Source of the DNA: Candidatus Kapaibacterium sp.
GTDB taxonomy: Bacteria > Bacteroidota > Ignavibacteria > Kapaibacteriales > UBA2268
Direction of reading: 5' to 3'
Length of the DNA: 64,000 nucleotides
NCBI GenBank assembly: GCA_026418625.1
Contig: JAOABA010000040.1
Span: 51,978-115,977 of the forward strand
In this document: positions 5,284-61,352 of the stretch, one piece after another
Layout: every line of letters begins with the position of its first letter
Position numbering within the stretch: the first letter of the stretch is position 1
The notes under the pieces: generated by a model
Seen by the model: the letters and a program-made list of their open reading frames with translations, nothing else
Told to the model about the DNA's origin: nothing
The model's database searches: none
Position numbers and translations under genes: made by a program

Positions 5284-6399
5284 ATGGAAATAACTGCAAA
5301 AATTACTGGAATAGAGTATAAACCTGTTTTAATAAGTAAGTTATCGGAATTTAATTATAATAAAAGTAATTTCTTCAATAACTTTGACGTTAACAAATTG
5401 CCTTCTTGTTGTATGGTAAATTTTGATAATTTTTCATTTGGACTATCAAAATGGGTATCACCAAAAAGGACACGTTCTTATCCTTATGAGAGAGTCTATA
5501 ATACTTTAGGTTGTAGTAAGCGAATAACGATAATACCAGTTATTAAAGATGAAGGGAAAAATGGAGATAGAGATTTTATACAATGGGATACAATTTCATT
5601 GATGAGTTTACTTGATGTTTATATAGTATTTACTTATTATAATGATGCTGAAATTAATTATAAGAAAGAAAATAAAATCACTAAACAAAAATACTGCAAC
5701 GAATTAGTCAAGCAAAAGATTGATGAAATAAAAAACTACCATAGTTCTGCATTACATTGGAATTTGAAGGAAATTGATGAGTCATTTGATAAGTTAATTG
5801 AAAAAGTAAAACAATCATATCAAATTTTATCCAACAAATTAAATATCGATTTTCACAATGAGTCTGGTATTGATAACTATTATGAGCAATTTCATAAAGG
5901 AGTAGAAGAATTCAAGTCATTTTCAAGGAGAAAAGCGAAGGGGGCTCAAAATCGTGAAAGTTTGACTATTCAACCAAAAGAAGCTTTATCTACTTTGTCC
6001 AAAGCTACGATAACAATAAAAAATTATCTTGGTGGGATTTATTATTTTACTGTTGATGAGATCAAAATAGTTAATGATAACATTTTCCTCATAGAAACAA
6101 AGCATTCAAATCGTTCTTTGATCCCAAGTGCAAGAGATATTAAAGATGGTTTATTAAAGATGATTTTATTCACAAATCTGAAAGATATTAAAATATTAAC
6201 AAAAAAATATAAATCAACTCCTATTTTAAAATTAACATCTTCAAAATTAACAAAAGGTATTACATCTAATAATTCCGATGTTGTCTTTCAAAAATTTAAA
6301 AAAGATAATAATCTAACTTATAAACAAGGAGTTTTGATTAACAATCTTTTAGAAGAAGCAAGGTATAATAGTTTTAAATTAATAATAGAAAATTACTAA
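5284..6399 (+). CDS. Putative type II restriction endonuclease, partner of the adjacent Dam-like methyltransferase
   Basis: 371-aa ORF located 7 nt upstream of a D12-class methyltransferase on the same strand. A candidate PD-(D/E)xK signature is ..VDEIKIVNDNIFLIETKHS.. (D...ExK). About 27% GC on a sampled line. No family assignment is possible by eye. Confidence 0.45.
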   Translation: MEITAKITGIEYKPVLISKLSEFNYNKSNFFNNFDVNKLPSCCMVNFDNFSFGLSKWVSPKRTRSYPYERVYNTLGCSKRITIIPVIKDEGKNGDRDFIQWDTISLMSLLDVYIVFTYYNDAEINYKKENKITKQKYCNELVKQKIDEIKNYHSSALHWNLKEIDESFDKLIEKVKQSYQILSNKLNIDFHNESGIDNYYEQFHKGVEEFKSFSRRKAKGAQNRESLTIQPKEALSTLSKATITIKNYLGGIYYFTVDEIKIVNDNIFLIETKHSNRSLIPSARDIKDGLLKMILFTNLKDIKILTKKYKSTPILKLTSSKLTKGITSNNSDVVFQKFKKDNNLTYKQGVLINNLLEEARYNSFKLIIENY

Positions 6400-40834: not shown

Positions 40835-41019
40835 TAATTTTCAATATAGCTATCATAACCGATGTAAATTAATAAATATTCCTAATGTATAAATATCAGA
40901 TTAAAGTCAAAGGCTTCAATTATGAATTTTTCTACTTTTTATGAGCCTAACATTTATAATAAATGGAGTAAATTGAGAAATTTCTCAAAGAGTTAAACTT
41001 ACGGAGGCAGATATCTAAA

Positions 41020-41172
41020 ATCAGAATTTATAACATCCTTGGTGAGTGCGTTTTATCAGAGAAAATTCATCCGATAACTCTGAGTTATCGGATGAATATC
41101 GAACATTTGCCATCAGGAATTTACTATGTCCGTCTTGGTGATTGGATGGGGAGCTTTGTTAAAATTAAATAG
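41020..41172 (+). pseudogene. Orphan 3' gene fragment encoding a T9SS C-terminal domain remnant (copy a)
   Basis: Encodes ..IRIYNILGECVLSEKIHPITLSYRMNIEHLPSGIYYVRLGDWMGSFVKIK*. This is DNA-level similar to the 3' end of the 44175..45536 gene. No upstream gene body is present, and an in-frame stop lies at 40969. Confidence 0.7.
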
Positions 41173-41474: not shown

Positions 41475-41683
41475 CTCCGCAGGAGTGACATATTGGTGGG
41501 AGAACTGCCTCTCGAAGGAGTGACGCTATGGATATTCAAGTCATTCCCTTGCTTGTCAAGGAATCCGAAAAAATTAATTTGGATTATTTAAAAATTGTCA
41601 ATAGTTTTCACATGTAAAATTGACATAACATTAAAATATATATTAAAATTACATTTTCTCTAACCATTTGAGGAGAATTAGTT

Positions 41684-42865
41684 ATGTCTAATATTTGTTT
41701 TACTCCCCTCGTAAAGAATAATTTTCTTAATAGTGATTATAAGTTCAAGAATTGTAACGTAAATAAACTTTTTGGAAAATTCTTTTTCTTATTCATTTTG
41801 TTTTTTTTATCTAATACTTCAACTTTACTATCTCAATGGTCTTCAATAAAGACCATTTCTCAAAATTTAAATTTGAACAGTATTTATGCCGTTACACCGG
41901 GACATATCTTTATTGCAACCGATAGTGCAACAATTTTAAAATCAAGTGAAGGTGGGTTCAATTGGACACGAACAAGCGGAGTGGGGGGCATTTCGCAATC
42001 AAATAATTTATATACAATTTTCTTTATTGATTCAGTCAATGGATGGGCAGCAGGAACAAAAGGTTCTGCAGTTAAAACTACAAACAGCGGAAACACTTGG
42101 ACTCCGATGACTATGGCTGATGGAAACATAACAATAAAACAGATTAGATTTGTAGATTCACTTAATGGCTGGGCAGTCGGTAATAGCGGTAAAATTCAAA
42201 TAACTACTGATGGTGGTTCAAGTTGGTCAATTCAACATACTTTTCAATCTGTTCAATCAATTAATTCAATTTATTTTATGCCCGAAGATGCTCAAACAAT
42301 TTGGGTAGCTGGAAATAGCGGTTTTATTGCAAAAAGCACTAATGAAGGCATAAACTGGATTAACCTTAATTCAGGAACCAATAATGATTTACTATGTATT
42401 AAGTTTGGAGATAGAAATATTGGTTGGGCTGTTGGCAAGTCAGGGACGATATTATTGACTGTAAACGGGGGAATTAACTGGATTAGCGTGCCTTCACCAA
42501 TAATCGGAGCAGGAGATATCAATTCTATATTAGTTAGTTCCGATGGATCTGCCATAATTGCCTGTAGCAATGGAAGATTATACGAAACATACAATTTTGG
42601 TAATACTTGGGTTGATGTGGAGCCTATATTTAATCAGAGTATTAATTCAATATTCTTTTTGCCATTGTTGTTATATTCAGTTACAAATGGAGGAAATATT
42701 GGAATCACCTATTTAGCAAGAACAAGAGATGAAATATGCTATGATGCATATAATCTCTGCTTAAATAAATGTAATAAAGGACAAACGGAATGTATTGAAA
42801 GCTGTAATAGAATGTTTATAGATTGTTTAAGAAAATCAAGCAAAATTAATTTGATTTATTATTGA
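41684..42865 (+). CDS. BNR/Asp-box beta-propeller protein (Ycf48-like) with a Cys-rich C-terminal tail and no T9SS CTD
   Basis: GAGGAG SD. Repeats SSEGGFNWT, TTNSGNTWT, TTDGGSSWS, STNEGINWI, TVNGGINWI, YNFGNTWV. The tail is ..CYDAYNLCLNKCNKGQTECIESCNRMFIDC.. Confidence 0.65.
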   Translation: MSNICFTPLVKNNFLNSDYKFKNCNVNKLFGKFFFLFILFFLSNTSTLLSQWSSIKTISQNLNLNSIYAVTPGHIFIATDSATILKSSEGGFNWTRTSGVGGISQSNNLYTIFFIDSVNGWAAGTKGSAVKTTNSGNTWTPMTMADGNITIKQIRFVDSLNGWAVGNSGKIQITTDGGSSWSIQHTFQSVQSINSIYFMPEDAQTIWVAGNSGFIAKSTNEGINWINLNSGTNNDLLCIKFGDRNIGWAVGKSGTILLTVNGGINWISVPSPIIGAGDINSILVSSDGSAIIACSNGRLYETYNFGNTWVDVEPIFNQSINSIFFLPLLLYSVTNGGNIGITYLARTRDEICYDAYNLCLNKCNKGQTECIESCNRMFIDCLRKSSKINLIYY

Positions 42866-43007
42866 AAGCGTTGGGAATTTTTTGGTTAATTCTTTGCTAA
42901 TTGACATACCTGTTTTCCATTGCTGAATTCTTGATCATTCAAATTCAGCAAAAAAGATTGGATTTAATCTCGATAAAGTCATTTTTAAATCAGTGTATGA
43001 TTTATTA

Positions 43008-43179
43008 AGGATATATAACATCCTCGGCGAGTGCATTTTTATCAAGTGGTAACTACAGAGGAACACACCCCTTTATCCCCTCTCAAGAGGGGAAGATATG
43101 GATTGGTGTTTCAAGTTTGCCCGCAGGGATTTACTATGTCCCTCTTGGTGATTGGGTGGGGAGGTTTGTGAAGAATTAG
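43008..43179 (+). pseudogene. Orphan, frameshifted T9SS C-terminal domain fragment (copy b)
   Basis: Reads RIYNILGECIFIKW*, then in another frame GTHPFIPSQEGKIWIGVSSLPAGIYYVPLGDWVGRFVKN*. DNA-level similar to 45390-45536. Confidence 0.7.
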
Positions 43180-43457
43180 AGATTGCTTCGTCGCTTTCCT
43201 GCTCGCAATGGCATGAAATTGTAATTGATTGGTTCGTTTCACTCATAACGATGGGATAAGCTTTTAATTGAAAGGGAAGGTTTTTGAAGTAAAGGAGTTG
43301 AAAAATTGAGAATTGATAATGTTGAATCAAAAACAATTTATTTCTTGCATATTTAAAATTATTTTTGTAATTTTTTTTTGAAATTTAATAATAGTTTTTT
43401 TAACATGATTGATTTAGTTCTTTAAAATAAATAATTAACATTTTCATAAAAAAACTT

Positions 43458-43507
43458 GAGGAGCTTTAGTCATGGCAAAAAACAATATTTACCCCCCCCC
43501 CCCATAA
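43458..43507 (+). other. SD (GAGGAG) plus ATG leader ORF of 11 codons that runs through the C12 tract and stops (MAKNNIYPPPP*)
   Basis: GAGGAG at 43458-43463, ATG at 43472, TAA at 43505. The frame of the downstream 43575 ORF is open back to 43470. Confidence 0.6.
43492..43503 (+). repeat. C12 homopolymer (candidate slipped-strand phase-variation tract)
   Basis: Twelve consecutive C in an AT-rich intergenic/5' coding context. Confidence 0.9.
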
Positions 43508-43574
43508 TATTATTAGGTTTAATAATATTATTAAATTAGCCTGGAGATGGCTTTTATTAAATGCAGAAGTCCCT

Positions 43575-44168
43575 ATGCCAACAAAGGATTCATGTGATAC
43601 AACTTATAGAGCAATAACAGCACCTTGCTGGAAAGATGATTCAATAACTATAGTTCCCCCCGAGGGTTTACATTTTCAATCTTGCAAGGATTCTGCTTGT
43701 TGTTGGGCAGTTTATGAGAAATGTAATTATGGTGATACTCTTTTCACTTTTAATAAATTTCAAACAGGTACAACTTATGAGCCCTGGTTTTGTTATCAAT
43801 ACGATTCCTGTAATGTGGCATGCAATTGGTTTCCATCATACGATTCAGCTTTCATTAGTCATCCAAGAAAAATTGATTATGATATTGAAAATATGATTTT
43901 ACAAACAAAAACCCTGCCATGCAGGAATATTCTTACTACCGATAATAATATTGATATATTATATCAGGATGAAAAGAAAGGGAATATGTTAATTGAAATT
44001 TATAATTCATACGGAGTCAAAATATTATCAAAAACAATCAATAAAAATGAGTTTATTATAAAACAGAAAATTGAACTTGGAAACATTGCAAGTGGTTTGT
44101 ACTTGTATAAATTAAATATCGGCAATGAATATTTATGTTCAGGTAAGATTATGTTAATCAAGGAGTAA
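43575..44168 (+). CDS. Small Cys-rich T9SS cargo protein (annotated start lacks SD and signal peptide; true start probably 43472 in another frame)
   Basis: Cys-rich N-terminal half (..DSCDTTY..APCW..QSCKDSACCW..). CTD ..IEIYNSYGVKIL..ASGLYLYKLNIGNEYLCSGKIMLIKE. Confidence 0.55.
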   Translation: MPTKDSCDTTYRAITAPCWKDDSITIVPPEGLHFQSCKDSACCWAVYEKCNYGDTLFTFNKFQTGTTYEPWFCYQYDSCNVACNWFPSYDSAFISHPRKIDYDIENMILQTKTLPCRNILTTDNNIDILYQDEKKGNMLIEIYNSYGVKILSKTINKNEFIIKQKIELGNIASGLYLYKLNIGNEYLCSGKIMLIKE

Positions 44169-44174
44169 ATTAAA

Positions 44175-45536
44175 ATGAAAAAAATAAAATTATTTTTAGC
44201 TCTGATGTTTTTTATATTTACTAATTTAATTGGCGCGGGTAAATGGGAAAAGGTTTATGAAACCGGAGAACAGTGGGGTTTTTCAATAAAATCAATAAAA
44301 TGTAAGGATTCAGAAAATTGTATAGCTATTGGCAATAAAAACTCTTATCCAATTTTTTTAATGAGCAACAATGGCGGTTTTACCTGGTATGAAGCATATA
44401 GTGATAAAAAGTGGAGTTATTATGATTCACTTGGTAAATATTGGTTTTATAAACCGAGTCAGTGTGCCGAAGTATCCTATTTGCCTTCAGGAAAAATTGT
44501 TGCAGTTGGAGATACCGGTACAGTCTGGAAATCTAATGATAATGGTAAAACTTGGGATACATTCAAAATCAGATCGAGGACATTCCCTGTTTTTGTTGCC
44601 GATAGTTACAATATATCTATGCATTCTGATGATTTTGGTGCAATTTCCTGTCCATTTGAAGTATATATTACAGAAGATGGTTGGAATAGTTATAAAAAAG
44701 CAACATTTAATTTACCTGATAGTGTAAATCCAAATTATATTGAAGATATACATTGTTTTGAAGAAAAAAAAATCAAAGTTCTTGCTTATAAAACTGGTAG
44801 AGGTTATTATATAATAAATTCTGACAATAAGGGTGAAACTTGGGAAGCATATAAACCAATATATCCATCGGCTGCTAAAATTTTCTTCCTGGATGAATAT
44901 AATGGCTATGCTGTTGGAGGAAGATATAAGGTGAATACAAACACAAATAAAGATTTAATTTATCATACAACAGACGGCGGTAAAACATGGGAAACTCAAT
45001 TAGATACTATAGAACATTACCCTGATGGATTAACACGAATCCATTTTTATGATTATAATCATGGTGTAGCAATAGGAAATTATCATAAGATGTGGCGGAC
45101 AACAAACGGAGGAAAGTATTGGTACAAAGATTCAACCCTTAACTACTCGATAAGTGATGAATACATTGTTGAAATAGTTATGCTGAGTCCAAATGAAATG
45201 CTTGGAGCTTTATCAGGATTTGGTAATATATGGAGATATACTGAAGAAACCTCAGCAGAGGAGGATGGATTAACTACTAATTCCGATAACATTTCTATCT
45301 CCCCCAATCCGGCTTGGGAGTATATAGTGATTACGGGATTGAGCAAGTGGTTGCAACCCCTTGTTCCTGAGGATGTGAGGATATATGATGTGCTGGGGGA
45401 AGTAGTTCAAACAGGACCACACCCCTTTATCCCCTCTCAAGAGGGGAAAATAAGGATTGATGTTTCAAGTTTGCCCACAGGGATTTACTATGTCCATCTT
45501 GGTTATTGGGTGGGGAAGTTTGTAAAAATTGAATAG
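44175..45536 (+). CDS. BNR/Asp-box beta-propeller protein with T9SS C-terminal domain
   Basis: AAGGAG SD and a signal peptide. Repeats SNNGGFTW, SNDNGKTW, SDNKGETW, TTDGGKTW, TTNGGKYW. CTD ..ISPNPAWEY..RIYDVLGEVV..PTGIYYVHLGYWVGKFVKIE. Confidence 0.7.
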   Translation: MKKIKLFLALMFFIFTNLIGAGKWEKVYETGEQWGFSIKSIKCKDSENCIAIGNKNSYPIFLMSNNGGFTWYEAYSDKKWSYYDSLGKYWFYKPSQCAEVSYLPSGKIVAVGDTGTVWKSNDNGKTWDTFKIRSRTFPVFVADSYNISMHSDDFGAISCPFEVYITEDGWNSYKKATFNLPDSVNPNYIEDIHCFEEKKIKVLAYKTGRGYYIINSDNKGETWEAYKPIYPSAAKIFFLDEYNGYAVGGRYKVNTNTNKDLIYHTTDGGKTWETQLDTIEHYPDGLTRIHFYDYNHGVAIGNYHKMWRTTNGGKYWYKDSTLNYSISDEYIVEIVMLSPNEMLGALSGFGNIWRYTEETSAEEDGLTTNSDNISISPNPAWEYIVITGLSKWLQPLVPEDVRIYDVLGEVVQTGPHPFIPSQEGKIRIDVSSLPTGIYYVHLGYWVGKFVKIE

Positions 45537-52343: not shown

Positions 52344-53915
52344 TTATCTTGGAATTAACTCAACTATCGGAACTATCATTTCCTCCATCGAAACTCCACC
52401 GTGTTGGAAGCTATCTCTATATTTTCCAAGATAATAATGAAAATCAGTGGGATAAACAAAGTAGAAATCTTCCTTAGCAATAATATTATTTACTGTTATG
52501 CCAAGGCGAGGCAATTTGAAATCAGCCGGATCTTTCAATTGAATAGCGTGACGGGATTCAGCTTTAACATTTTTTCCAAATTTATATCTCAGATTTGTTG
52601 ATGTTTCTTTATCACCAATTACTTTTACACCCCTCATACACCTAATTGAACCGTGATCGGTAGTTAAGATAATTTTTACATTTTTTATTGAGGAAATTGC
52701 TTTAAGAATACCAAACAAGCTTGAATGCTGGAACCAAGAAGAGGTTAGCGAGCGATAAGCTGACTCATTTGGTGCTATTTCTTTCAAAATTGCAAAATCC
52801 GAACGGGAGTGTGCTATCATATCCACAGCATTGACTACTATTGAGGTTAAATGGTTCCTCGAATATTTCATTATATCCGATTCAATCTTTTTCCCGAAGT
52901 CTGTGTCGTGAATTTTAATGTATTGCAAAGGAGAATTCAAGGATGCCCTTTTTCTTTTTAACTGCTCTTCCAAAAGTTCCTTTTCATAAGCATTAAGCTT
53001 ATAATCTTCTGAATTAAGTTCATTAACCCACCATTGAGGATAATGTTTCTGAATGTCAATCGGGAAAAGCCCAGCAAAGATAGAATTCCTTGCATAGGGT
53101 GTTGCAGTTGGAAGAATGGCAGAATAAAAATCTTTCTTGAAATTATAAAATGGTCTAAGGTGCTCTTCCATAATTAGCCACTGGTCAAGTCTCATACAAT
53201 CAACTACTATGAAAAAGACAGGGTTACCTGATTTGAGCTTTGGCACCAAATATTTTTCAACAATCTCCGGCGAGAAAACAGGAGCTTCTGGCGTCTTTCT
53301 ATGAATCCAATTCTGATAATTATCCTCGATAAATTTTGAAAAAACAGTGTTACACTCTCTCCATTGATTCTGAAGGGTTTCCTGAAAACCTAATTGTGGG
53401 TGACGGTCTAATTCGAGTGACCAAGTTACAAGTTTAGTATAGATTTCTTTCCAGTCGTTCCAGTTTAAGTCGTCATAAAGCAATGAAGTAATTTGGTTCA
53501 GCCCTTGAATATAATCCTGAGTAATTTTTTCCTGAGAGATTCTTTCAGATTCGAGGAATTTTTTACAAGCAGCTAAAATTTGAGCAGGATTGACGGGTTT
53601 AGTCAAATAATCATCAATTTTTCTGCCGATAGCATCCTCCATCACACTTTCTGCTTCGTTTTTAGTAACCATAACAACAGGAGTTGCAGGGTCAATTTCC
53701 TTCAATATTGGCAAAGTTTCAAGACCGCTAATTCCAACCATTGACTCATCGAGAAAAGTGAGGTCATAATGCGATTTCTTAACTAATTCAATGGCATCCT
53801 CGCCGTTTGTTGCTGTTTCAACACTATAGCCACGTTGTTCGAGAAGGATAATGTGAGGCTTTAGCAGTTCAATCTCGTCATCAATCCAAAGAATTCTACC
53901 TTTACTTTGATTCAT
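52344..53915 (-). CDS. porX: Response regulator with C-terminal PglZ (alkaline-phosphatase-superfamily) domain, PorX-type T9SS regulator
   Basis: Receiver RILWIDDE..DLTFLDESM..YLTKPV. PglZ-like region ..FFIVVDCMRLDQW.. and ..LTTDHGS.. Size (523 aa) and architecture match PorX. Confidence 0.7.
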   Translation of the reverse strand: MNQSKGRILWIDDEIELLKPHIILLEQRGYSVETATNGEDAIELVKKSHYDLTFLDESMVGISGLETLPILKEIDPATPVVMVTKNEAESVMEDAIGRKIDDYLTKPVNPAQILAACKKFLESERISQEKITQDYIQGLNQITSLLYDDLNWNDWKEIYTKLVTWSLELDRHPQLGFQETLQNQWRECNTVFSKFIEDNYQNWIHRKTPEAPVFSPEIVEKYLVPKLKSGNPVFFIVVDCMRLDQWLIMEEHLRPFYNFKKDFYSAILPTATPYARNSIFAGLFPIDIQKHYPQWWVNELNSEDYKLNAYEKELLEEQLKRKRASLNSPLQYIKIHDTDFGKKIESDIMKYSRNHLTSIVVNAVDMIAHSRSDFAILKEIAPNESAYRSLTSSWFQHSSLFGILKAISSIKNVKIILTTDHGSIRCMRGVKVIGDKETSTNLRYKFGKNVKAESRHAIQLKDPADFKLPRLGITVNNIIAKEDFYFVYPTDFHYYLGKYRDSFQHGGVSMEEMIVPIVELIPR

Positions 53916-56668: not shown

Positions 56669-57994
56669 ATGAATTTTCAGAAATTAACTTTGAAATCGCA
56701 GGAAGCTGTTCAATTGGCTCAGGAAATAGCTTCGAATTACTCTAACCAGTCAATTGAGCCAATACACCTTTTGGCAGCCTTGATACAGGACCCAAACGGT
56801 TTAGTTCCAGATATTATACAGAAACTTGGAGCAAATATAAATTACATTAAAATCAAAGTAAACGAAAATTTAGAAACCCAGCCAAAAGTATCCAATGTAA
56901 ATATTTCAAATCAATATCTGTCTCCTGCAATGACGACAGTTTTTGATTTAGCACATAATGAAGCAAAAACATTAAGAGATGAATATGTAAGTATTGAACA
57001 TTTATTGATTGCTCTTTCGGAAAGTAAGTCTTCAGCTGGGGACATACTAAGAGCAAACAGTATCACCAAAGATGAAATTTATAAGGCTTTAAGGACTATC
57101 AGAGGAACTTCAAGGGTTACCGATCAAAACCCCGAAGATAAATATCAAGCCTTGAAAAAATACGGTAGGCTCCTCAATGATGAAGCAAGAGAAGGAAAAC
57201 TCGACCCCGTCATCGGAAGAGAAGAAGAGATAAGAAGAGTTTTGCAGGTGCTTTCGAGAAGGACCAAAAATAACCCTGTTTTAATAGGTGAACCGGGTGT
57301 TGGTAAGACAGCAATTGTAGAGGGCATTGCCCATCGAATTGTATCTGGCGATGTCCCAGAAACTTTGAAATCTAAATCTGTTGTTATGCTCGATATGGCA
57401 TCCTTGATTGCTGGGACAAGTTTCAGAGGGCAATTTGAAGAAAGATTGAAGTCAGTCATTAGAGAAGTAACTGAATCGAATGGACAAATAATCCTATTTA
57501 TTGATGAAATTCATACTTTAATTGGAGCTGGCTCTGCTCAGGGCAGTATGGATGCTTCGAATATATTAAAACCTGCCTTGGCAAGAGGAGATTTAAGATG
57601 TATTGGAGCCACAACACTTGATGAATATCAGAAATATATTGAGCGTGACCCCGCACTTGAAAGAAGATTTCAAAAAGTTATGATAGACGAGCCTGATGTT
57701 GATGACACGATTTCAATCCTTAGAGGCTTAAAAGAAAGGTATGAAGTCCATCACGGAGTAAAAATAACAGACGCAGCTATAGTAGCAGCTGCAGAATTAT
57801 CTCATCGTTATATTACTGATAGATTTTTGCCCGATAAAGCCATTGACCTGATTGACGAAGCAGCAAGTAAGCTCAGGTTAGAAATTGATTCTATGCCCGA
57901 AGAGCTTGATTCAATTCAAAGAAAAATCCGTCAGCTCGAAATCGAACGTCAGGCTTTATTGAGAGAACTCGAAATTGAAAAAGAAAATGACTGA
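56669..57994 (+). CDS. clpB: ClpB-like AAA+ chaperone truncated after NBD1 and the start of the M-domain (441 aa; possible pseudogene)
   Basis: Clp N-domain, then Walker [14 protein letters not shown], Walker [10 protein letters not shown] and ..[23 protein letters not shown].. The M-domain coiled coil begins ..[19 protein letters not shown] and then stops. No NBD2 is found anywhere downstream. Confidence 0.75.
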
Positions 57995-58066: not shown

Positions 58067-59266
58067 ATGGGAAGTGATTTCCCTTTTATTATCATAGACG
58101 AAGATGATTCAAGGTCACTGACGCTTGAAAAAATAATTATAAGGGCATTCCCAAGTATAATAATTCAAAAATTTACTGACGGACTGGACGCAATTGAAGA
58201 ATTAAGGAAGACTGATTTTAATGGAATAGTAATTTCGCACTTTAACACTGCCTCCTTGAATGGTTTGCAAGTTTTAAAAAATATAAGACAGGAGGAGACA
58301 AGCAAAAATCTATATTTTATTCTTGTAATTCCGGAAATTGAAAAAGACCTCCCAATAAAAGCAATTCAATCAGGAGTTGATGATTTTATCAAAGAGCCTT
58401 TGTCATTGGATGATATAATAAGTAAACTCAAAATCGCTGTTAGAACTATTAATAATCAATCCAAAATTGAAGTACTTGAACTTAAAAAGGAAAGTTTGAC
58501 CAAAGAAATTGACGAAATCTATGACAAGATGCTGAACCTTGTCATAACATTTCTGCAAATGAGATATCCCCATTACGATTTGATGACCGAAAGAATAAAA
58601 TCTTCGGCTCTTTGGATTGCAAGTCATTATAATTCTGAAAAGGATTTAATTTCAAAACTCGAAAAAGCTATACCCTTGGTCTTCGTTGGAAAATTATTTT
58701 TAAGAGATAATCAAATTGCGGCAAAAGTTACAATTGACGGAATGCCTAAGAATGATGATATGCTGAAAATCCCCGAATATACAAGATCTATGCTTGGGAA
58801 TCTTAGAAATTATGAAGATGTTATTGATATCATAGTTCATATTTATGAAAATTATGATGGAAGCGGTTTTCCAGATAAACTAATGTCAAGAATGATTCCC
58901 CTTGCTTCGAGAATTTTACGTGTTGTTATTGATTTCGAAGAGTATGTTAACGAAAGAAAGTATGACAAAACAAAAATAGTCGAGATGATGGGCTACGAAG
59001 CCCGTAGGTTATATGATCATAGAATTATAGCCCTTATGGATCAATATTTAGCTGAAACTTCCTCAAGAGGCGGAGTAACTTTGGAAATAAAAGTTCAAAA
59101 AAATAATCTAACCGAAGGAATGATACTTTCGAGAAATATCATTACTGAATCTGGTTTAAAGCTTCTCTCAGCAGGAACATTATTAAATCAGGAAAGTATT
59201 GAAAAAATATTAACAATAACAAAATCGGATCAAATAGTTGGAAATATTTATGTCAGGAACAAATAA
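58067..59266 (+). CDS. Pseudo-receiver plus degenerate HD-GYP domain protein
   Basis: CheY-like fold, but the acceptor position reads ..GIVISHFNTASLNG.. with no Asp. The HD-GYP-like region is ..HIYENYDGSGFPDKLMSRMIPLASRILRVVIDFEEY.. The expected LHDIGK is replaced by LVFVGK. Confidence 0.6.
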   Translation: MGSDFPFIIIDEDDSRSLTLEKIIIRAFPSIIIQKFTDGLDAIEELRKTDFNGIVISHFNTASLNGLQVLKNIRQEETSKNLYFILVIPEIEKDLPIKAIQSGVDDFIKEPLSLDDIISKLKIAVRTINNQSKIEVLELKKESLTKEIDEIYDKMLNLVITFLQMRYPHYDLMTERIKSSALWIASHYNSEKDLISKLEKAIPLVFVGKLFLRDNQIAAKVTIDGMPKNDDMLKIPEYTRSMLGNLRNYEDVIDIIVHIYENYDGSGFPDKLMSRMIPLASRILRVVIDFEEYVNERKYDKTKIVEMMGYEARRLYDHRIIALMDQYLAETSSRGGVTLEIKVQKNNLTEGMILSRNIITESGLKLLSAGTLLNQESIEKILTITKSDQIVGNIYVRNK

Positions 59267-59474: not shown

Positions 59475-61352
59475 ATGTTAAGATTGAAGCCGGTTTTTTT
59501 TTTTCTCTTTTTTGTTTACACATTAAGAGCTGTTTCTCAAGAATACAACCTTCTTGAAAATAATTTTCTTCAATTCGGCTTCGATAAAATTTATGGGACG
59601 TATATTTTTGCTGGTCTGGGTAATATAAAATTAGATAATGAATTAGGACAATTTAATCTTTTGCAAAATTATAGAAGCACAATCCTCAAGACACCTTCTC
59701 AAAGCTTCAGAGACGACCAATCACTTTCATTTTTATATAAATACAGATTGTCAAACTTGTTTTATTTTTTTTCAAACAATTCTTGGTTATTATCCTCCGA
59801 TTCGAGGTCAATTGGCTTGAATAAACTTGAAAATTTGCTTGGGACAGTCGGTTCTGGACTAAATTTTGGGAATAATTCATATTTTGAAATTAATGGCGGT
59901 TTTGAAAGGAACACTCAGCTTAATATTTCATCAGGGGGACCTTCCTTTGGTTTAAGTGGAAATTTAGAAAAAATTGAAGTCCTTGATTTGATAATGAATT
60001 CTAACCTTAAAGGTAAATATTCATCATTAAACCCTGATAGAAAAAATGCTGATTTAAATTTTATTCTTGGCTTAATGAAAGAATATGACCAAGAAAACAG
60101 AATAAATGCTTCTTTGGATTATAAAATAATGAACAGGGATTTTGTTTATTATCCTGTGAATATTACCGACAGATATTATATAGAGCAAAGAGAAGAACAA
60201 AGGATTAGTTCTGCTTTGGAAAGTGATTTTTTAATTTCTGGAAAACTATTTGGTTCGATGAGGATTAATTTGAATAGTTTGAAAGTAAGCAGAGCCTATA
60301 ACGATTCAATTTCGAATTTCTCTTTGTCATATTTTTATAGAAATTTAAATGAATTAATACTAACATTTAATCCGGAAATTAAATTCGCCTCTGAAAGATA
60401 TATTCATCGAGCTGGATTTAAATACGATTTGAGAAATGAAGACAATTTCATCTCGAAGAAATTCAATATCAGTGAGGCAATTGAAGACGAGCTTCAAAAT
60501 AATGAAAGCCAGAGGGATAACAATTCTACCAAGTCAGGTCTTTATTCTTTTTTTACTTTTCTTGTTTCAAGCTATGATACTCTTTCGTTCAATGTAAATA
60601 CCAGCTTGCTTCAATTTGATACCCCAAGCACAACAAATTATGATGACCGTGATGAGTTCAATGCAATATTCGATTTGAAATACTCAAAAAGATTTTCAGA
60701 AGTTCTGACTGCTTCGGCAACTTTAAATCTGCAATTAAACCATCTTGTTTATATAAAAGCTCAACGGAGTGCTTTAAATAATTGGAACCGTGTAATTAAG
60801 TTTAATCCTGAAATAAATTATCGAAGTTCTTTTTTATCGGCTAATCCTTCGTTCGAGATTTTAGCAAATTACACTGTATATGATTTTGAAGATATAGCTC
60901 CGGGAATAAAAAGTTATAGTTTCAGGCAGATTGCTTATAAAGATTCACTTTTAATTCCCTTATTTAAAAATATCAGATTAAATTCAAGAATTAATATCCG
61001 TTATTTTGAGCGTGGGATACTTTTCTGGAAAAAATTTGCCGAATCACCACAAAGTAATAATCTTGAGCAATATTACAGGCTTATGATATTCTATAATCCA
61101 AGCATCGGTAATATTATTGGATGTGGATTAAGTTTTTTCAATTTAAAGACTGGTGTTTTGAAGTCTGACTCTAAAGCTTTCTCTGATGATTACAACCAAC
61201 AATCAATATCATTAGAAAGTGAAATTGGAATGAATTTCATTTCTGGATCATTTATTTCGTTCAGGGGTTGGCTTGAATTTCAAGAAATTAATTATAAGAT
61301 TAAGAAAGTTTTTCCAAATTTTTTTATATTGGTAAAATACTTTTTTGGATAA
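59475..61352 (+). CDS. Hypothetical outer-membrane beta-barrel-like protein
   Basis: Signal peptide MLRLKPVFFFLFFVYTLRAVSQ. 625 aa of alternating-pattern beta-strand-like sequence with an aromatic C-terminus. No family recognised. Confidence 0.4.
   Translation: MLRLKPVFFFLFFVYTLRAVSQEYNLLENNFLQFGFDKIYGTYIFAGLGNIKLDNELGQFNLLQNYRSTILKTPSQSFRDDQSLSFLYKYRLSNLFYFFSNNSWLLSSDSRSIGLNKLENLLGTVGSGLNFGNNSYFEINGGFERNTQLNISSGGPSFGLSGNLEKIEVLDLIMNSNLKGKYSSLNPDRKNADLNFILGLMKEYDQENRINASLDYKIMNRDFVYYPVNITDRYYIEQREEQRISSALESDFLISGKLFGSMRINLNSLKVSRAYNDSISNFSLSYFYRNLNELILTFNPEIKFASERYIHRAGFKYDLRNEDNFISKKFNISEAIEDELQNNESQRDNNSTKSGLYSFFTFLVSSYDTLSFNVNTSLLQFDTPSTTNYDDRDEFNAIFDLKYSKRFSEVLTASATLNLQLNHLVYIKAQRSALNNWNRVIKFNPEINYRSSFLSANPSFEILANYTVYDFEDIAPGIKSYSFRQIAYKDSLLIPLFKNIRLNSRINIRYFERGILFWKKFAESPQSNNLEQYYRLMIFYNPSIGNIIGCGLSFFNLKTGVLKSDSKAFSDDYNQQSISLESEIGMNFISGSFISFRGWLEFQEINYKIKKVFPNFFILVKYFFG

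What the first reader, a model, noticed from the sequence alone, without database searches (positions are those of the whole stretch)
43458..43577. C12 homopolymer directly after an SD+ATG: likely ON/OFF switch for a T9SS cargo operon
A strong SD (GAGGAG) and an ATG at 43472 are followed at codon 7 by twelve consecutive C residues (43492-43503), which is very unlikely by chance in such AT-rich DNA. With 12 C the ORF stops after 11 codons (TAA at 43505). With 11 or 14 C the ATG becomes continuous with the frame of the 43575..44168 ORF, which is open back to 43470. The annotated ATG at 43575 has no SD and no signal peptide, although the protein ends in a T9SS CTD. The BNR-propeller gene at 44175 follows after only 6 nt and could be co-regulated. 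Caveat: the N-terminus predicted for the 11-C state (MAKNNIYPPPHNIIRFNNIIKLAWRWLLLNAEVP..) is only a weak signal peptide. Gene decay or a homopolymer sequencing error are therefore real alternatives.
Basis: partly seen in the sequence, partly recalled or inferred. Interest (0 to 1): 0.65.

Follow-up and report, generated by a model that had tools for sequence, protein, structure and literature searches.

The report
Poly-C phase switch on a decayed secretion gene
The run of twelve C's is real and belongs to a conserved on/off switch cassette found in front of many secreted-protein genes in related hot-spring bacteria, but the gene behind this copy has lost about 0.8 kb, so no tract length can give an exportable protein here.

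Summary
GAGGAG lies at 43458-63, the ATG at 43472 and C12 at 43492-43503. The next-longest G/C run in the 64 kb is 6.

The tract is not an isolated oddity. Relatives from hot-spring and other metagenomes carry a nearly identical cassette: sigma-70-like promoter, strong SD, ATG, "MSKNYF", poly-C of 7-11, then the hydrophobic core of a signal peptide. It heads long intact ORFs (242-947 aa) for Cys-rich proteins, most of which end in a T9SS C-terminal sorting domain (CTD).

Of 12 distinct loci, 2 are in frame and 10 are out. Some need +1 C and others -1 C. One orthologous locus is C7, out of frame and carries three lesions in six assemblies. In a 94.5%-identical strain it is C9, in frame and lacks all three. 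This is classic slipped-strand translational phase variation, as in pilC and opa.

The window copy is a relic. A deletion of about 0.8 kb between two 12-nt repeats (ATAATATTATTA) fused the signal-peptide core to the middle of the protein, out of frame. C13/C10 gives a 22-aa peptide. The downstream BNR gene has its own SD and is intact. Within-population length heterogeneity could not be tested because no raw reads were available.

The parts
43409..43437 (+). Promoter-like segment of the cassette: TTGATT, 17 nt, TAATTA, followed directly by ACATTTTC.
   Evidence: It aligns with the TTGACA-17-TATAAA box of the canonical cassette. On its own it cannot be told from chance in AT-rich DNA: 18 promoter-like sites were found against 17.8 expected.
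43458..43463 (+). Strong Shine-Dalgarno GAGGAG, 8 nt before the ATG.
   Evidence: It is homologous to the AAGGAG of the cassette. Strong SDs are unusual in this genome: only 10 of 33 long ORFs have any SD-like motif.
43472..43491 (+). Start codon and n-region of the leader (MAKNNIY). It corresponds to MSKNYF(T/I) in relatives.
43492..43503 (+). C12 homopolymer, the hypermutable element. It encodes poly-Pro between the n-region and the hydrophobic core of the signal peptide.
   Evidence: One search shows it is the longest G/C run by a factor of 2. Homologous tracts of C7-C11 sit at the same site in relatives.
43505..43507 (+). TAA that ends the 11-codon reading of the C12 state.
43504..43539 (+). 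Remnant of the signal-peptide hydrophobic core (IILLGLIILLN, then TAG). It is in frame with the ATG only at C13 or C10.
   Evidence: It is homologous to IIILGLIILLITL of L001. Hydropathy is 3.66.
43522..43533 (+). Deletion junction. This is the second copy of the 12-nt direct repeat ATAATATTATTA; the first copy is at 43504-43515.
   Evidence: locates the two 12-mers. Contigs of 93-94% relatives (X2, X5, X6) match only from 43521/43523 rightwards. To the left they continue with ..GGGAATTGTCAGTTTTGCTTGACCTCAACA.., the end of the missing domain.
43521..44168 (+). Surviving 3' part of the Cys-rich cargo gene (NNIIKLAWRW... to the stop). The called ORF is 43575-44168.
   Evidence: 57% identity to P0002 over 218 residues, with the alignment extending upstream of ATG 43575. 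41% identity to the intact L006 protein.
43941..44165 (+). T9SS type A C-terminal sorting domain.
   Evidence: TIGR04183 23.9 bits (cutoff 23); PF18962 E=2e-5. In the AF2 model this is a beta-sandwich with pLDDT 70-82.
44175..45536 (+). Intact BNR/Sortilin-type propeller gene with its own SD (AAGGAG 44160-44165), signal peptide and T9SS CTD. It is the syntenic partner of the cargo gene in L001 and L006.
41540..41710 (+). Second, canonical copy of the cassette in the window. The hairpin is at 41540-41566, TTGACA at 41620-41625 and the ATG at 41684. The poly-C is interrupted (ACTCCCCTC, 41702-41710) and is in frame with the 393-aa BNR ORF.
   Evidence: (2 mismatches to the 36-nt consensus, 0 expected by chance).

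Best explanation
The C12 tract is the slippage-prone element of a conserved 5' switch cassette.

The cassette has these parts in order:
- a REP-like hairpin;
- a TTGACA-17-TATAAA-type promoter;
- a strong SD;
- an ATG and a 6-7 codon n-region;
- poly-C, which encodes poly-Pro;
- the hydrophobic core of a Sec signal peptide.

In related AT-rich hot-spring bacteria the cassette heads a multigene family of Cys-rich proteins. Most of the long ones end in a T9SS C-terminal sorting domain.

Slipped-strand mispairing during replication adds or removes C's. That moves the fixed ATG in or out of frame with the signal peptide and the mature protein. It is translational ON/OFF phase variation.

In this window the switch sits on a dead gene. 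Recombination between two copies of a 12-nt repeat removed about 0.8 kb. It fused the signal-peptide core to the middle of the protein in the wrong frame. The outcomes by tract length are:
- C12 gives an 11-aa peptide;
- C13 or C10 gives a 22-aa peptide;
- C11 or C14 gives a 231-aa product that has a CTD but no signal peptide, so it could not reach the T9SS.

Shown: the tract, the cassette homology, the length differences between loci and between strains, the frame states and the deletion.

Inferred: that slippage occurs at a high rate and reversibly in living populations, and that the ON products are exported.
For: 1. The tract is real and non-random.

2. The same SD+ATG+leader+poly-C stands at the same place in relatives. 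It is C7 in L001-L005 and L017, C10 in L006, and C8-C10 in L009, L011, L012, L014/L020, L018 and L023. C7, C9 and C11 variants appear in X15 and X17 contigs.

3. Behind the tract, always in the frame that begins with a hydrophobic signal-peptide core, lie long intact ORFs of 505, 881, 483, 821, 947 and 242 aa, in about 33% GC DNA. Of the five scanned against Pfam (L023 was not scanned), three hit only the T9SS CTD and two hit nothing.

4. Of 12 distinct loci, 2 are in frame and 10 are out. This is compatible with random phase (P=0.18). The correction needed is +1 C in five and -1 C in five.

5. The orthologous locus differs between strains. The L001 type has C7, is out of frame, and carries TGA 5360, a frameshift near 5440 and TGA 5902. 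The X24 strain is 94.5% identical. It has 30 nt from the ATG to the hydrophobic core (C9), so it is in frame. It also has TGA>TTA, an extra A behind 5439, and TGA>TGT.

6. The cassette alignment shows a near-identical promoter, SD and leader across paralogs. A canonical copy with an interrupted tract, locked in frame, lies in the window at 41651-41686.

7. The deletion in this copy is supported in three ways. Homology to P0002 extends upstream of ATG 43575. Relatives at 93-94% identity diverge left of 43521/43523 into domain-1 sequence. The 12-mer occurs twice.

8. The window's other ORFs are long and intact, so the assembly is not riddled with indel errors.
Against: - No raw reads were available for any run. 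Length heterogeneity within one population, the hallmark of phase variation, was not observed. The same locus had the same length in different samples: C7 in six assemblies, and C8 in two (L014 and L020).
- One Logan contig ends exactly at the start of the tract (X11). That is only weakly suggestive of a graph branch.
- The strain pair C7/C9 differs at 5.5% of sites, so that length change could be old.
- None of the 147 family representatives begins with the MSKNYF..PP leader. No in-frame product turned up among them.
- X1 depth is only about 9, so the window tract could be off by one. This does not change the conclusion, because no length restores an exportable protein.
Confidence: 0.7

Rival explanations
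1. This copy is a working switch: at 11 or 14 C the ATG at 43472 reads through into the 43575 frame. The result is a functional 231-aa T9SS cargo, and the BNR gene is co-regulated with it.
For: The frame is open from 43470. The tract is long enough to be highly mutable. The BNR gene follows after 6 nt, and the gene pair is syntenic in L001 and L006.
Against: - The 11-C N-terminus reads the signal-peptide codons in the wrong frame (HNIIRFNNII). Its best hydropathy window is 1.2, against 2.65-3.7 for family signal peptides.
- The segment KLAWRWLLL is an internal helix in the intact relatives.
- A CTD without Sec export cannot reach the T9SS (established knowledge).
- The BNR gene has its own SD and signal peptide, and it has stayed intact.
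Confidence: 0.1
2. Expression without DNA change. RNA-polymerase slippage on the C run, or ribosomal frameshifting on C_CCC_CCA next to the TAA, restores the frame in a fraction of molecules. On this view the out-of-frame genomic state is the normal, expressed state.
For: Ten of 12 loci are out of frame, yet six of them keep ORFs of 242-947 aa. In the window and in L001 the zero frame ends CCA TAA right after the tract, which resembles a slippery site followed by a stop. Long homopolymers are known to cause transcriptional slippage (own knowledge: Baranov et al. 2005; Tamas et al. 2008).
Against: - Half of the out-of-frame loci need +1 nt and half need -1 nt. A single directional ribosomal mechanism therefore fails.
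- Two loci are in frame at the DNA level (L012, and the X24 ortholog).
- No stable RNA structure lies downstream (z=+0.8).
- The out-of-frame L001 copy has accumulated nonsense mutations, as expected if it is truly silent.
- Low-level transcriptional slippage could still coexist with DNA switching.
Confidence: 0.12
3. Homopolymer sequencing or assembly error. The true tract has another length and the gene is intact.
For: Depth is low (about 9x) in the only run that holds the sequence. Homopolymers are error-prone.
Against: - An independent assembly gives the identical sequence.
- No tract length gives a continuous signal peptide plus protein, because the deletion junction changes frame as well.
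- Five to six Illumina assemblies of the relative show the same kind of out-of-frame tract.
- Other ORFs in the window are intact.
Confidence: 0.05
4. A regulatory upstream ORF. The short peptide MAKNNIYPPPP-stop is a poly-proline stalling leader, sensitive to EF-P or proline, that controls downstream translation or transcription.
For: A strong SD, an ATG, a short ORF ending PP(PP)-stop and a TAA immediately after the tract occur in two species.
Against: In other family members the zero frame runs 3-31 codons past the tract, with no conserved stop position. In the in-frame alleles the leader is fused to the signal peptide. No attenuator-like structure is present.
Confidence: 0.03

Closest known systems
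Neisseria pilC1/pilC2 poly-G tract (Jonsson et al. 1991, as summarised in PMC5320596)
   Same: [quoted passage not shown] Length changes shift the frame and switch the protein ON or OFF. Tract lengths differ between strains.
   Different: - pilC has one or two genes, not a cassette shared by many paralogs.
- The host is a host-adapted proteobacterial pathogen, not an AT-rich hot-spring bacterium carrying the T9SS regulator gene porX.
- pilC switching has been shown experimentally. Here it is inferred from comparative data only.
Neisseria opa gene family (CTTCT repeats; PMC5320596)
   Same: A multigene family of about 11 loci. Each copy carries its own repeat in the leader-coding 5' end and its own ON/OFF state. 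Most copies are OFF at any time.
   Different: The opa repeat is a pentamer, not a homopolymer. The products are outer-membrane adhesins, not T9SS CTD proteins. No conserved promoter hairpin cassette has been described for opa (own knowledge).
Campylobacter jejuni poly-G/C contingency loci (PMC8437040, PMC5380846)
   Same: Many G/C homopolymers of 8-13 nt stand out in an AT-rich genome. They drive stochastic frameshift switching of surface-related genes.
   Different: In Campylobacter the tracts lie at various positions in unrelated genes, mostly glycosyltransferases. Here one homologous promoter-leader-tract module precedes each gene, always between the n-region and the hydrophobic core of the signal peptide.
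Mycoplasma vlp/vsp-type variable lipoprotein families (own knowledge)
   Same: Paralogous surface-protein genes share a highly conserved 5' promoter and leader block that contains a homopolymer switch.
   Different: The Mycoplasma tract is poly-A in the promoter spacer, so the control is transcriptional. Here the tract is poly-C inside the ORF, so the control is translational.

Membership tests
SSR-mediated translational phase variation (contingency locus) | A simple-sequence repeat long enough to be hypermutable (G/C run of about 7-8 or more). | tested here: met
   C12 at 43492-43503. Relatives have C7-C11.
SSR-mediated translational phase variation (contingency locus) | The repeat lies inside the ORF, near the 5' end, so that length changes shift the reading frame. 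| tested here: met
   The tract follows codon 7 of the leader. The three frames give different products.
SSR-mediated translational phase variation (contingency locus) | At least one tract length gives a complete, plausible protein. | tested here: not met
   Not met for the window copy: products are 11 aa, 22 aa, or 231 aa without a signal peptide. Met for family members L006, L009, L014, L018, L023 and L012, and for the X24 ortholog.
SSR-mediated translational phase variation (contingency locus) | Tract length differs at the orthologous locus between strains. | tested here: met
   The L001-type locus is C7 (26 nt from the ATG to the hydrophobic core) in six assemblies. It is C9 (30 nt) in the 94.5%-identical X24 strain. 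No second strain of the window's own locus was found.
SSR-mediated translational phase variation (contingency locus) | Length heterogeneity within one population, and reversible switching. | not testable with these tools
   All runs were available only as Logan contigs. The only hint is one contig break at a tract.
T9SS cargo protein | A C-terminal sorting domain (type A CTD). | tested here: met
   TIGR04183 23.9 bits against cutoff 23; PF18962 25.1 bits, below the Pfam cutoff of 27.
T9SS cargo protein | An N-terminal Sec signal peptide in the same reading frame. | tested here: not met
   The hydrophobic core IILLGLIILL is in a different frame from the CTD-bearing part. The 43575 and 11-C N-termini are not hydrophobic. 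SignalP was not available.
T9SS cargo protein | T9SS machinery encoded in the genome. | tested here: inconclusive
   PorX lies at 52344-53915 (700 bits, cutoff 300). The core genes (sprA, porK-N, porV) were not in the window.
Programmed ribosomal frameshift site | A conserved slippery site with one conserved shift direction and a stimulatory element. | tested here: not met
   The shift needed is +1 nt in five loci and -1 nt in five. There is no stable downstream structure (z=+0.8).

The most novel reading that the evidence does not exclude
Uncultured, AT-rich hot-spring bacteria that carry the T9SS regulator gene porX have a 'phasome' built from one portable module. The module is about 190 bp: hairpin, promoter, SD, MSKNYF leader and poly-C. 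It has been copied in front of many paralogous T9SS cargo genes. At least 8 distinct loci were seen, and the k-mer depth ratio reaches about 19x.

On this reading each cell displays a random subset of Cys-rich secreted or surface proteins. Copies locked OFF decay, and copies with interrupted tracts are locked ON. This would be SSR contingency switching in a free-living thermophile, coupled to type IX secretion. No paper in the searched library links the two.
Probability: 0.55. Interest if true: 0.65.

Novelty: new member of a known kind. Interest (0 to 1): 0.45.

Why it matters
Homopolymer contingency loci are known almost only from host-adapted pathogens and commensals. In the T9SS phyla, phase variation is usually attributed to invertible promoters (own knowledge).

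Here a shared poly-C switch cassette heads a family of T9SS cargo genes in hot-spring bacteria. This would show that free-living thermophiles use the same bet-hedging trick for their secreted or surface proteins, perhaps against phage or grazers.

It also gives metagenomics a directly countable marker: tract length per locus in reads.

For annotation there are two practical consequences. First, these genes are systematically mis-called: the starts are truncated and the signal peptide is missed. Second, this window's copy should be marked as a pseudogene, not as a 197-aa protein.

Tried and rejected
- **Alternative genetic code or selenocysteine.** I considered this to explain the three in-frame TGAs in L001. 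I rejected it because TGA ends normal genes in both sequences, and the X24 strain has sense codons at two of the three sites.
- **Single-direction -1 ribosomal frameshift at C_CCC_CCA.** Rejected because other loci need the opposite shift.
- **Rfam scan of the window.** No hits.
- **RNA fold of 43440-43580.** No better than shuffled sequence.
- **Protein search with the in-frame form of L006.** It returned nothing, so ON-state calls could not be counted in the large database.
- **Representative search.** It gave 147 relatives, none with the leader.
- **AlphaFold on the remnant.** The Cys-rich part came out at pLDDT about 30, so I ran no fold search.
- **Read laying.** Two calls were lost to a filter on L006 2998-3041.
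- **BNR TGA at L001 6950 in X24.** I could not tell whether it is repaired in that strain.
- **Taxonomy.** Not resolved. The only GTDB hit, L006, is labelled 'uncultured Hyphomicrobiales'. That does not fit a 34% GC sequence whose genes end in T9SS sorting domains, so the label is probably wrong.
- **Copy number of about 19x from summed unitig depth.** This may overcount, because overlapping unitigs of one copy are added together.

Full report
**1. Observation**

GAGGAG lies at 43458-43463. The ATG is at 43472. Twelve C run from 43492 to 43503. The zero frame reads MAKNNIYPPPP and stops at TAA 43505. The frame of the 197-aa ORF (43575-44168) is open back to 43470 and is reached with 11 or 14 C.

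The window is 32.9% GC. C-run counts fall about five-fold with each added C, and nothing lies between 6 and 12. The tract is therefore not a chance run. An independent Logan assembly of a 2014 hot-spring metagenome (X1, depth about 9) reproduces 43200-44400 exactly, C12 included.

The 197-aa ORF ends in a T9SS type A sorting domain: TIGR04183 scores 23.9 bits against a cutoff of 23. The next gene, 44175-45536, is a BNR/Sortilin-like propeller. It has its own AAGGAG SD, signal peptide and CTD.

**2. The called start at 43575 is wrong, and the gene is truncated**

The large protein database held a single homolog, P0002 (272 aa, 57% identity). Its alignment runs upstream of ATG 43575: IKLAWRWLLLNAEVP matches IKKAWKWLLLKAELP.

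The third frame behind the tract, reached with 13 or 10 C, encodes IILLGLIILLN and then TAG. That is a typical signal-peptide hydrophobic core, with hydropathy 3.66.

Contigs from three other metagenomes (X2, X5, X6) are 93-94% identical to the window. They match only from 43521/43523 rightwards. To the left they continue with ..AATTGTCAGTTTTGCTTGACCTCAACA... This corresponds to the ..GNCNFCFSST.. segment that precedes the IKKAW helix in P0002.

The 12-mer ATAATATTATTA occurs at 43504-43515 and at 43522-43533. In the signal peptide it encodes IILL. In the mature part it lies one base out of register, within NNIIK. The simplest reading is a repeat-mediated deletion of about 0.8 kb. The size comes from the L001 coordinates, roughly 5336 to 6171. 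The deletion joined the signal-peptide core to the middle of the protein in the wrong frame.

**3. The tract is part of a conserved cassette**

The five contigs that encode P0002 come from five different samples (L001-L005). All of them carry AAGGAG, ATG TCT AAA AAT TAT TTT A, then C7, then ATAATAATATTAGGTTTAATTATC.. about 700 nt upstream.

The only hit among the GTDB species representatives is L006. It has the same leader with C10, followed by a fully open frame of 505 codons. That frame starts with SYLFLTLFIYFLV and ends in a CTD. A BNR gene follows 4 nt later.

I scanned the JGI metagenomes for the leader-plus-C6 pattern. That scan, together with loose ends of Logan contigs, gave more loci:

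| Locus | Tract | ORF behind the tract |
|---|---|---|
| L009 | C10 | 881 aa |
| L011 | C9 | 242 aa |
| L012 | C10 | at least 126 aa, running to the end of the locus |
| L014 = L020 | C8 | 483 aa |
| L018 | C9 | 821 aa |
| L023 | C8 | 947 aa |
| L007 | C9 | none (orphan cassette) |
| X15, X17 contigs | C7, C9, C11 variants | only about 30 nt seen |

The upstream 150 nt align almost perfectly between paralogs. The parts are a hairpin (GTCATTCCCACGAAAGTGGGAATC), TTGACA-17-TATAAA, and ACATTTTCTCAAACYATTTAAGGAGARTTAGTT before the ATG.

The window's C12 copy is a diverged version, 72% identical over 156 aligned columns. A canonical copy, with 2 mismatches in 36 nt and none expected by chance, lies in the window at 41651-41686. 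Its tract is interrupted (ACTCCCCTC) and is in frame with the 393-aa BNR ORF.

L009 and L017 lie on the same 398-kb contig. Summed unitig depth over the cassette is about 19 times the single-copy depth in a 3.7-Mb genome data set. That figure may overcount. At least eight distinct loci were seen directly.

**4. Frame states**

Of 12 distinct loci, 2 are in frame with the conserved ATG: L012, and the X24 ortholog of L001. The other 10 are out of frame. Five of those need +1 C and five need -1 C.

This is compatible with random phase (P=0.18 for two or fewer ON). It is not compatible with a single-direction ribosomal frameshift.

The long intact ORFs behind out-of-frame tracts show that these genes are maintained by selection. 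They must therefore be expressed at least some of the time.

**5. A natural before-and-after pair**

In six assemblies the L001-type locus is C7 and out of frame. It also carries TGA at 5360, a frameshift near 5440 and TGA at 5902. The BNR gene behind it has an in-frame TGA as well.

In the X24 metagenome a 94.5%-identical strain has ATGTCAAAAAATTATTTTATA followed by C9. That makes 30 nt from the ATG to the hydrophobic core, so the locus is in frame. At the lesion sites it has TTA for the first TGA, an extra A behind 5439, and TGT for the second TGA.

So the in-frame allele is intact and the short-tract, out-of-frame allele is decaying. This is what one expects of a contingency gene that has become locked OFF. 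The window copy fits the same picture. Its neighbourhood also holds CTD fragments without gene bodies, at about 41005-41170 and 42990-43175.

**6. Mechanism**

*Shown.* A homopolymer of variable length sits at a fixed site between the n-region and the hydrophobic core of a signal peptide. It lies behind a conserved promoter, SD and ATG. Frame states differ between loci and between strains.

*Inferred from established knowledge of slipped-strand mispairing (pilC, opa, Campylobacter; PMC5320596, PMC8437040).* Replication slippage changes the tract length at a high rate and reversibly. Each copy therefore switches independently between ON (leader, poly-Pro, signal peptide and cargo, exported by Sec and then the T9SS) and OFF (a short peptide).

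*This window's copy.* No state gives a product with both a signal peptide and a CTD. The BNR gene behind it has its own SD and remains intact. Its dependence on the switch is unproven.

**7. Rivals**

- *Transcriptional slippage on the C run.* It could add low-level expression from OFF alleles and is not excluded. It is not needed, however, and the decay of the C7 allele argues that OFF really means silent.
- *Sequencing error.* It is not needed and cannot rescue the ORF.
- *A poly-proline stalling uORF.* It is not supported, because the stop position is not conserved and no structure is present.
- *Alternative code or selenocysteine.* I excluded this as an explanation of the TGAs in L001.

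**8. Comparison and novelty**

The mechanism is that of pilC (a poly-G tract in the 5' coding region) combined with the family logic of opa (many paralogs, each with its own leader repeat).

Two things are new:
- The setting: uncultured AT-rich hot-spring bacteria whose genome carries the T9SS regulator gene porX (PorX at 52344-53915).
- The portable cassette of about 190 bp shared by the paralogs.

The genome is SD-poor. Only 10 of 33 long ORFs have any SD-like motif, against a 12% background rate. Yet the cassette has a strong SD.

The wider protein family has 147 representatives. Many of them carry an ordinary signal peptide and none has the leader. The cassette therefore appears to be a lineage-restricted addition.

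No paper in the searched library links homopolymeric phase variation with type IX secretion.

**9. Limits**

- No raw reads were available, so within-population heterogeneity is untested.
- Taxonomy is unresolved.
- The function of the Cys-rich proteins is unknown. Pfam finds only the CTD, and the AF2 model is poor outside the CTD.

**Verdict**

This copy is a relic of a switch on a deleted gene. The family-level finding is the more interesting result.

Noticed in passing
window 41540-41710: A second, canonical copy of the switch cassette: hairpin, TTGACA promoter, GAGGAG, ATG at 41684. Its poly-C is interrupted (ACTCCCCTC) and is in frame with the 393-aa BNR-propeller ORF 41684-42865. It looks like a copy locked ON.
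   Followed up: partly
window ~41005-41170, ~42990-43175, 45413-45526: T9SS CTD-coding fragments without gene bodies. One is intact in frame and one is frameshifted. Segment 43059-43172 is 92% identical to the 3' end of the BNR gene. The neighbourhood is an eroding array of cargo/BNR modules.
   Followed up: partly
window 56669-57994 and 58067-59266: The ClpB ORF stops at residue 441 of about 853 (..[11 protein letters not shown]). An unrelated ORF resembling a receiver domain follows. This is either a truncated gene, a rearrangement or an assembly join.
   Followed up: partly
window 52344-53915 (- strand): A clear PorX, the T9SS response regulator (700 bits, cutoff 300). The organism therefore carries a T9SS regulator gene.
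   Followed up: no
window, all 33 ORFs of 220 aa or more: Only 10 of 33 have any SD-like motif within 20 nt of the start, against a background rate of 12%. The strongest SDs belong to the cassette genes and the BNR gene. The genome is SD-poor, like Bacteroidota.
   Followed up: partly
L001 5360, ~5440, 5902, 6950: Three in-frame TGAs and one frameshift lie within 1.6 kb of the C7 lineage, including one TGA in the downstream BNR gene. All five P0002-encoding contigs, from five different samples, give the same gene calls here (147-aa and 272-aa ORFs). The two TGAs in the cargo gene and the frameshift are absent from the X24 strain.
   Followed up: yes
L001 4960-5150 and upstream of every cassette: Clusters of REP-like palindromes (GTCATTCCCAC GAAA GTGGGAATC and variants). 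One always lies directly 5' of the promoter. It may be a terminator or insulator, or a recombination site that helps the cassette spread.
   Followed up: no
L007 49-130: An orphan cassette (C9) with no ORF behind it. The next genes are on the other strand.
   Followed up: partly
L006 record title: The GTDB representative MAG holding the intact ortholog is labelled 'uncultured Hyphomicrobiales'. That does not fit a 34% GC sequence whose genes end in T9SS sorting domains, so the label is probably wrong.
   Followed up: no
window 59494-59504: T11, the longest A/T homopolymer in the window, just downstream of the start of ORF 59475-61352. Not examined.
   Followed up: no
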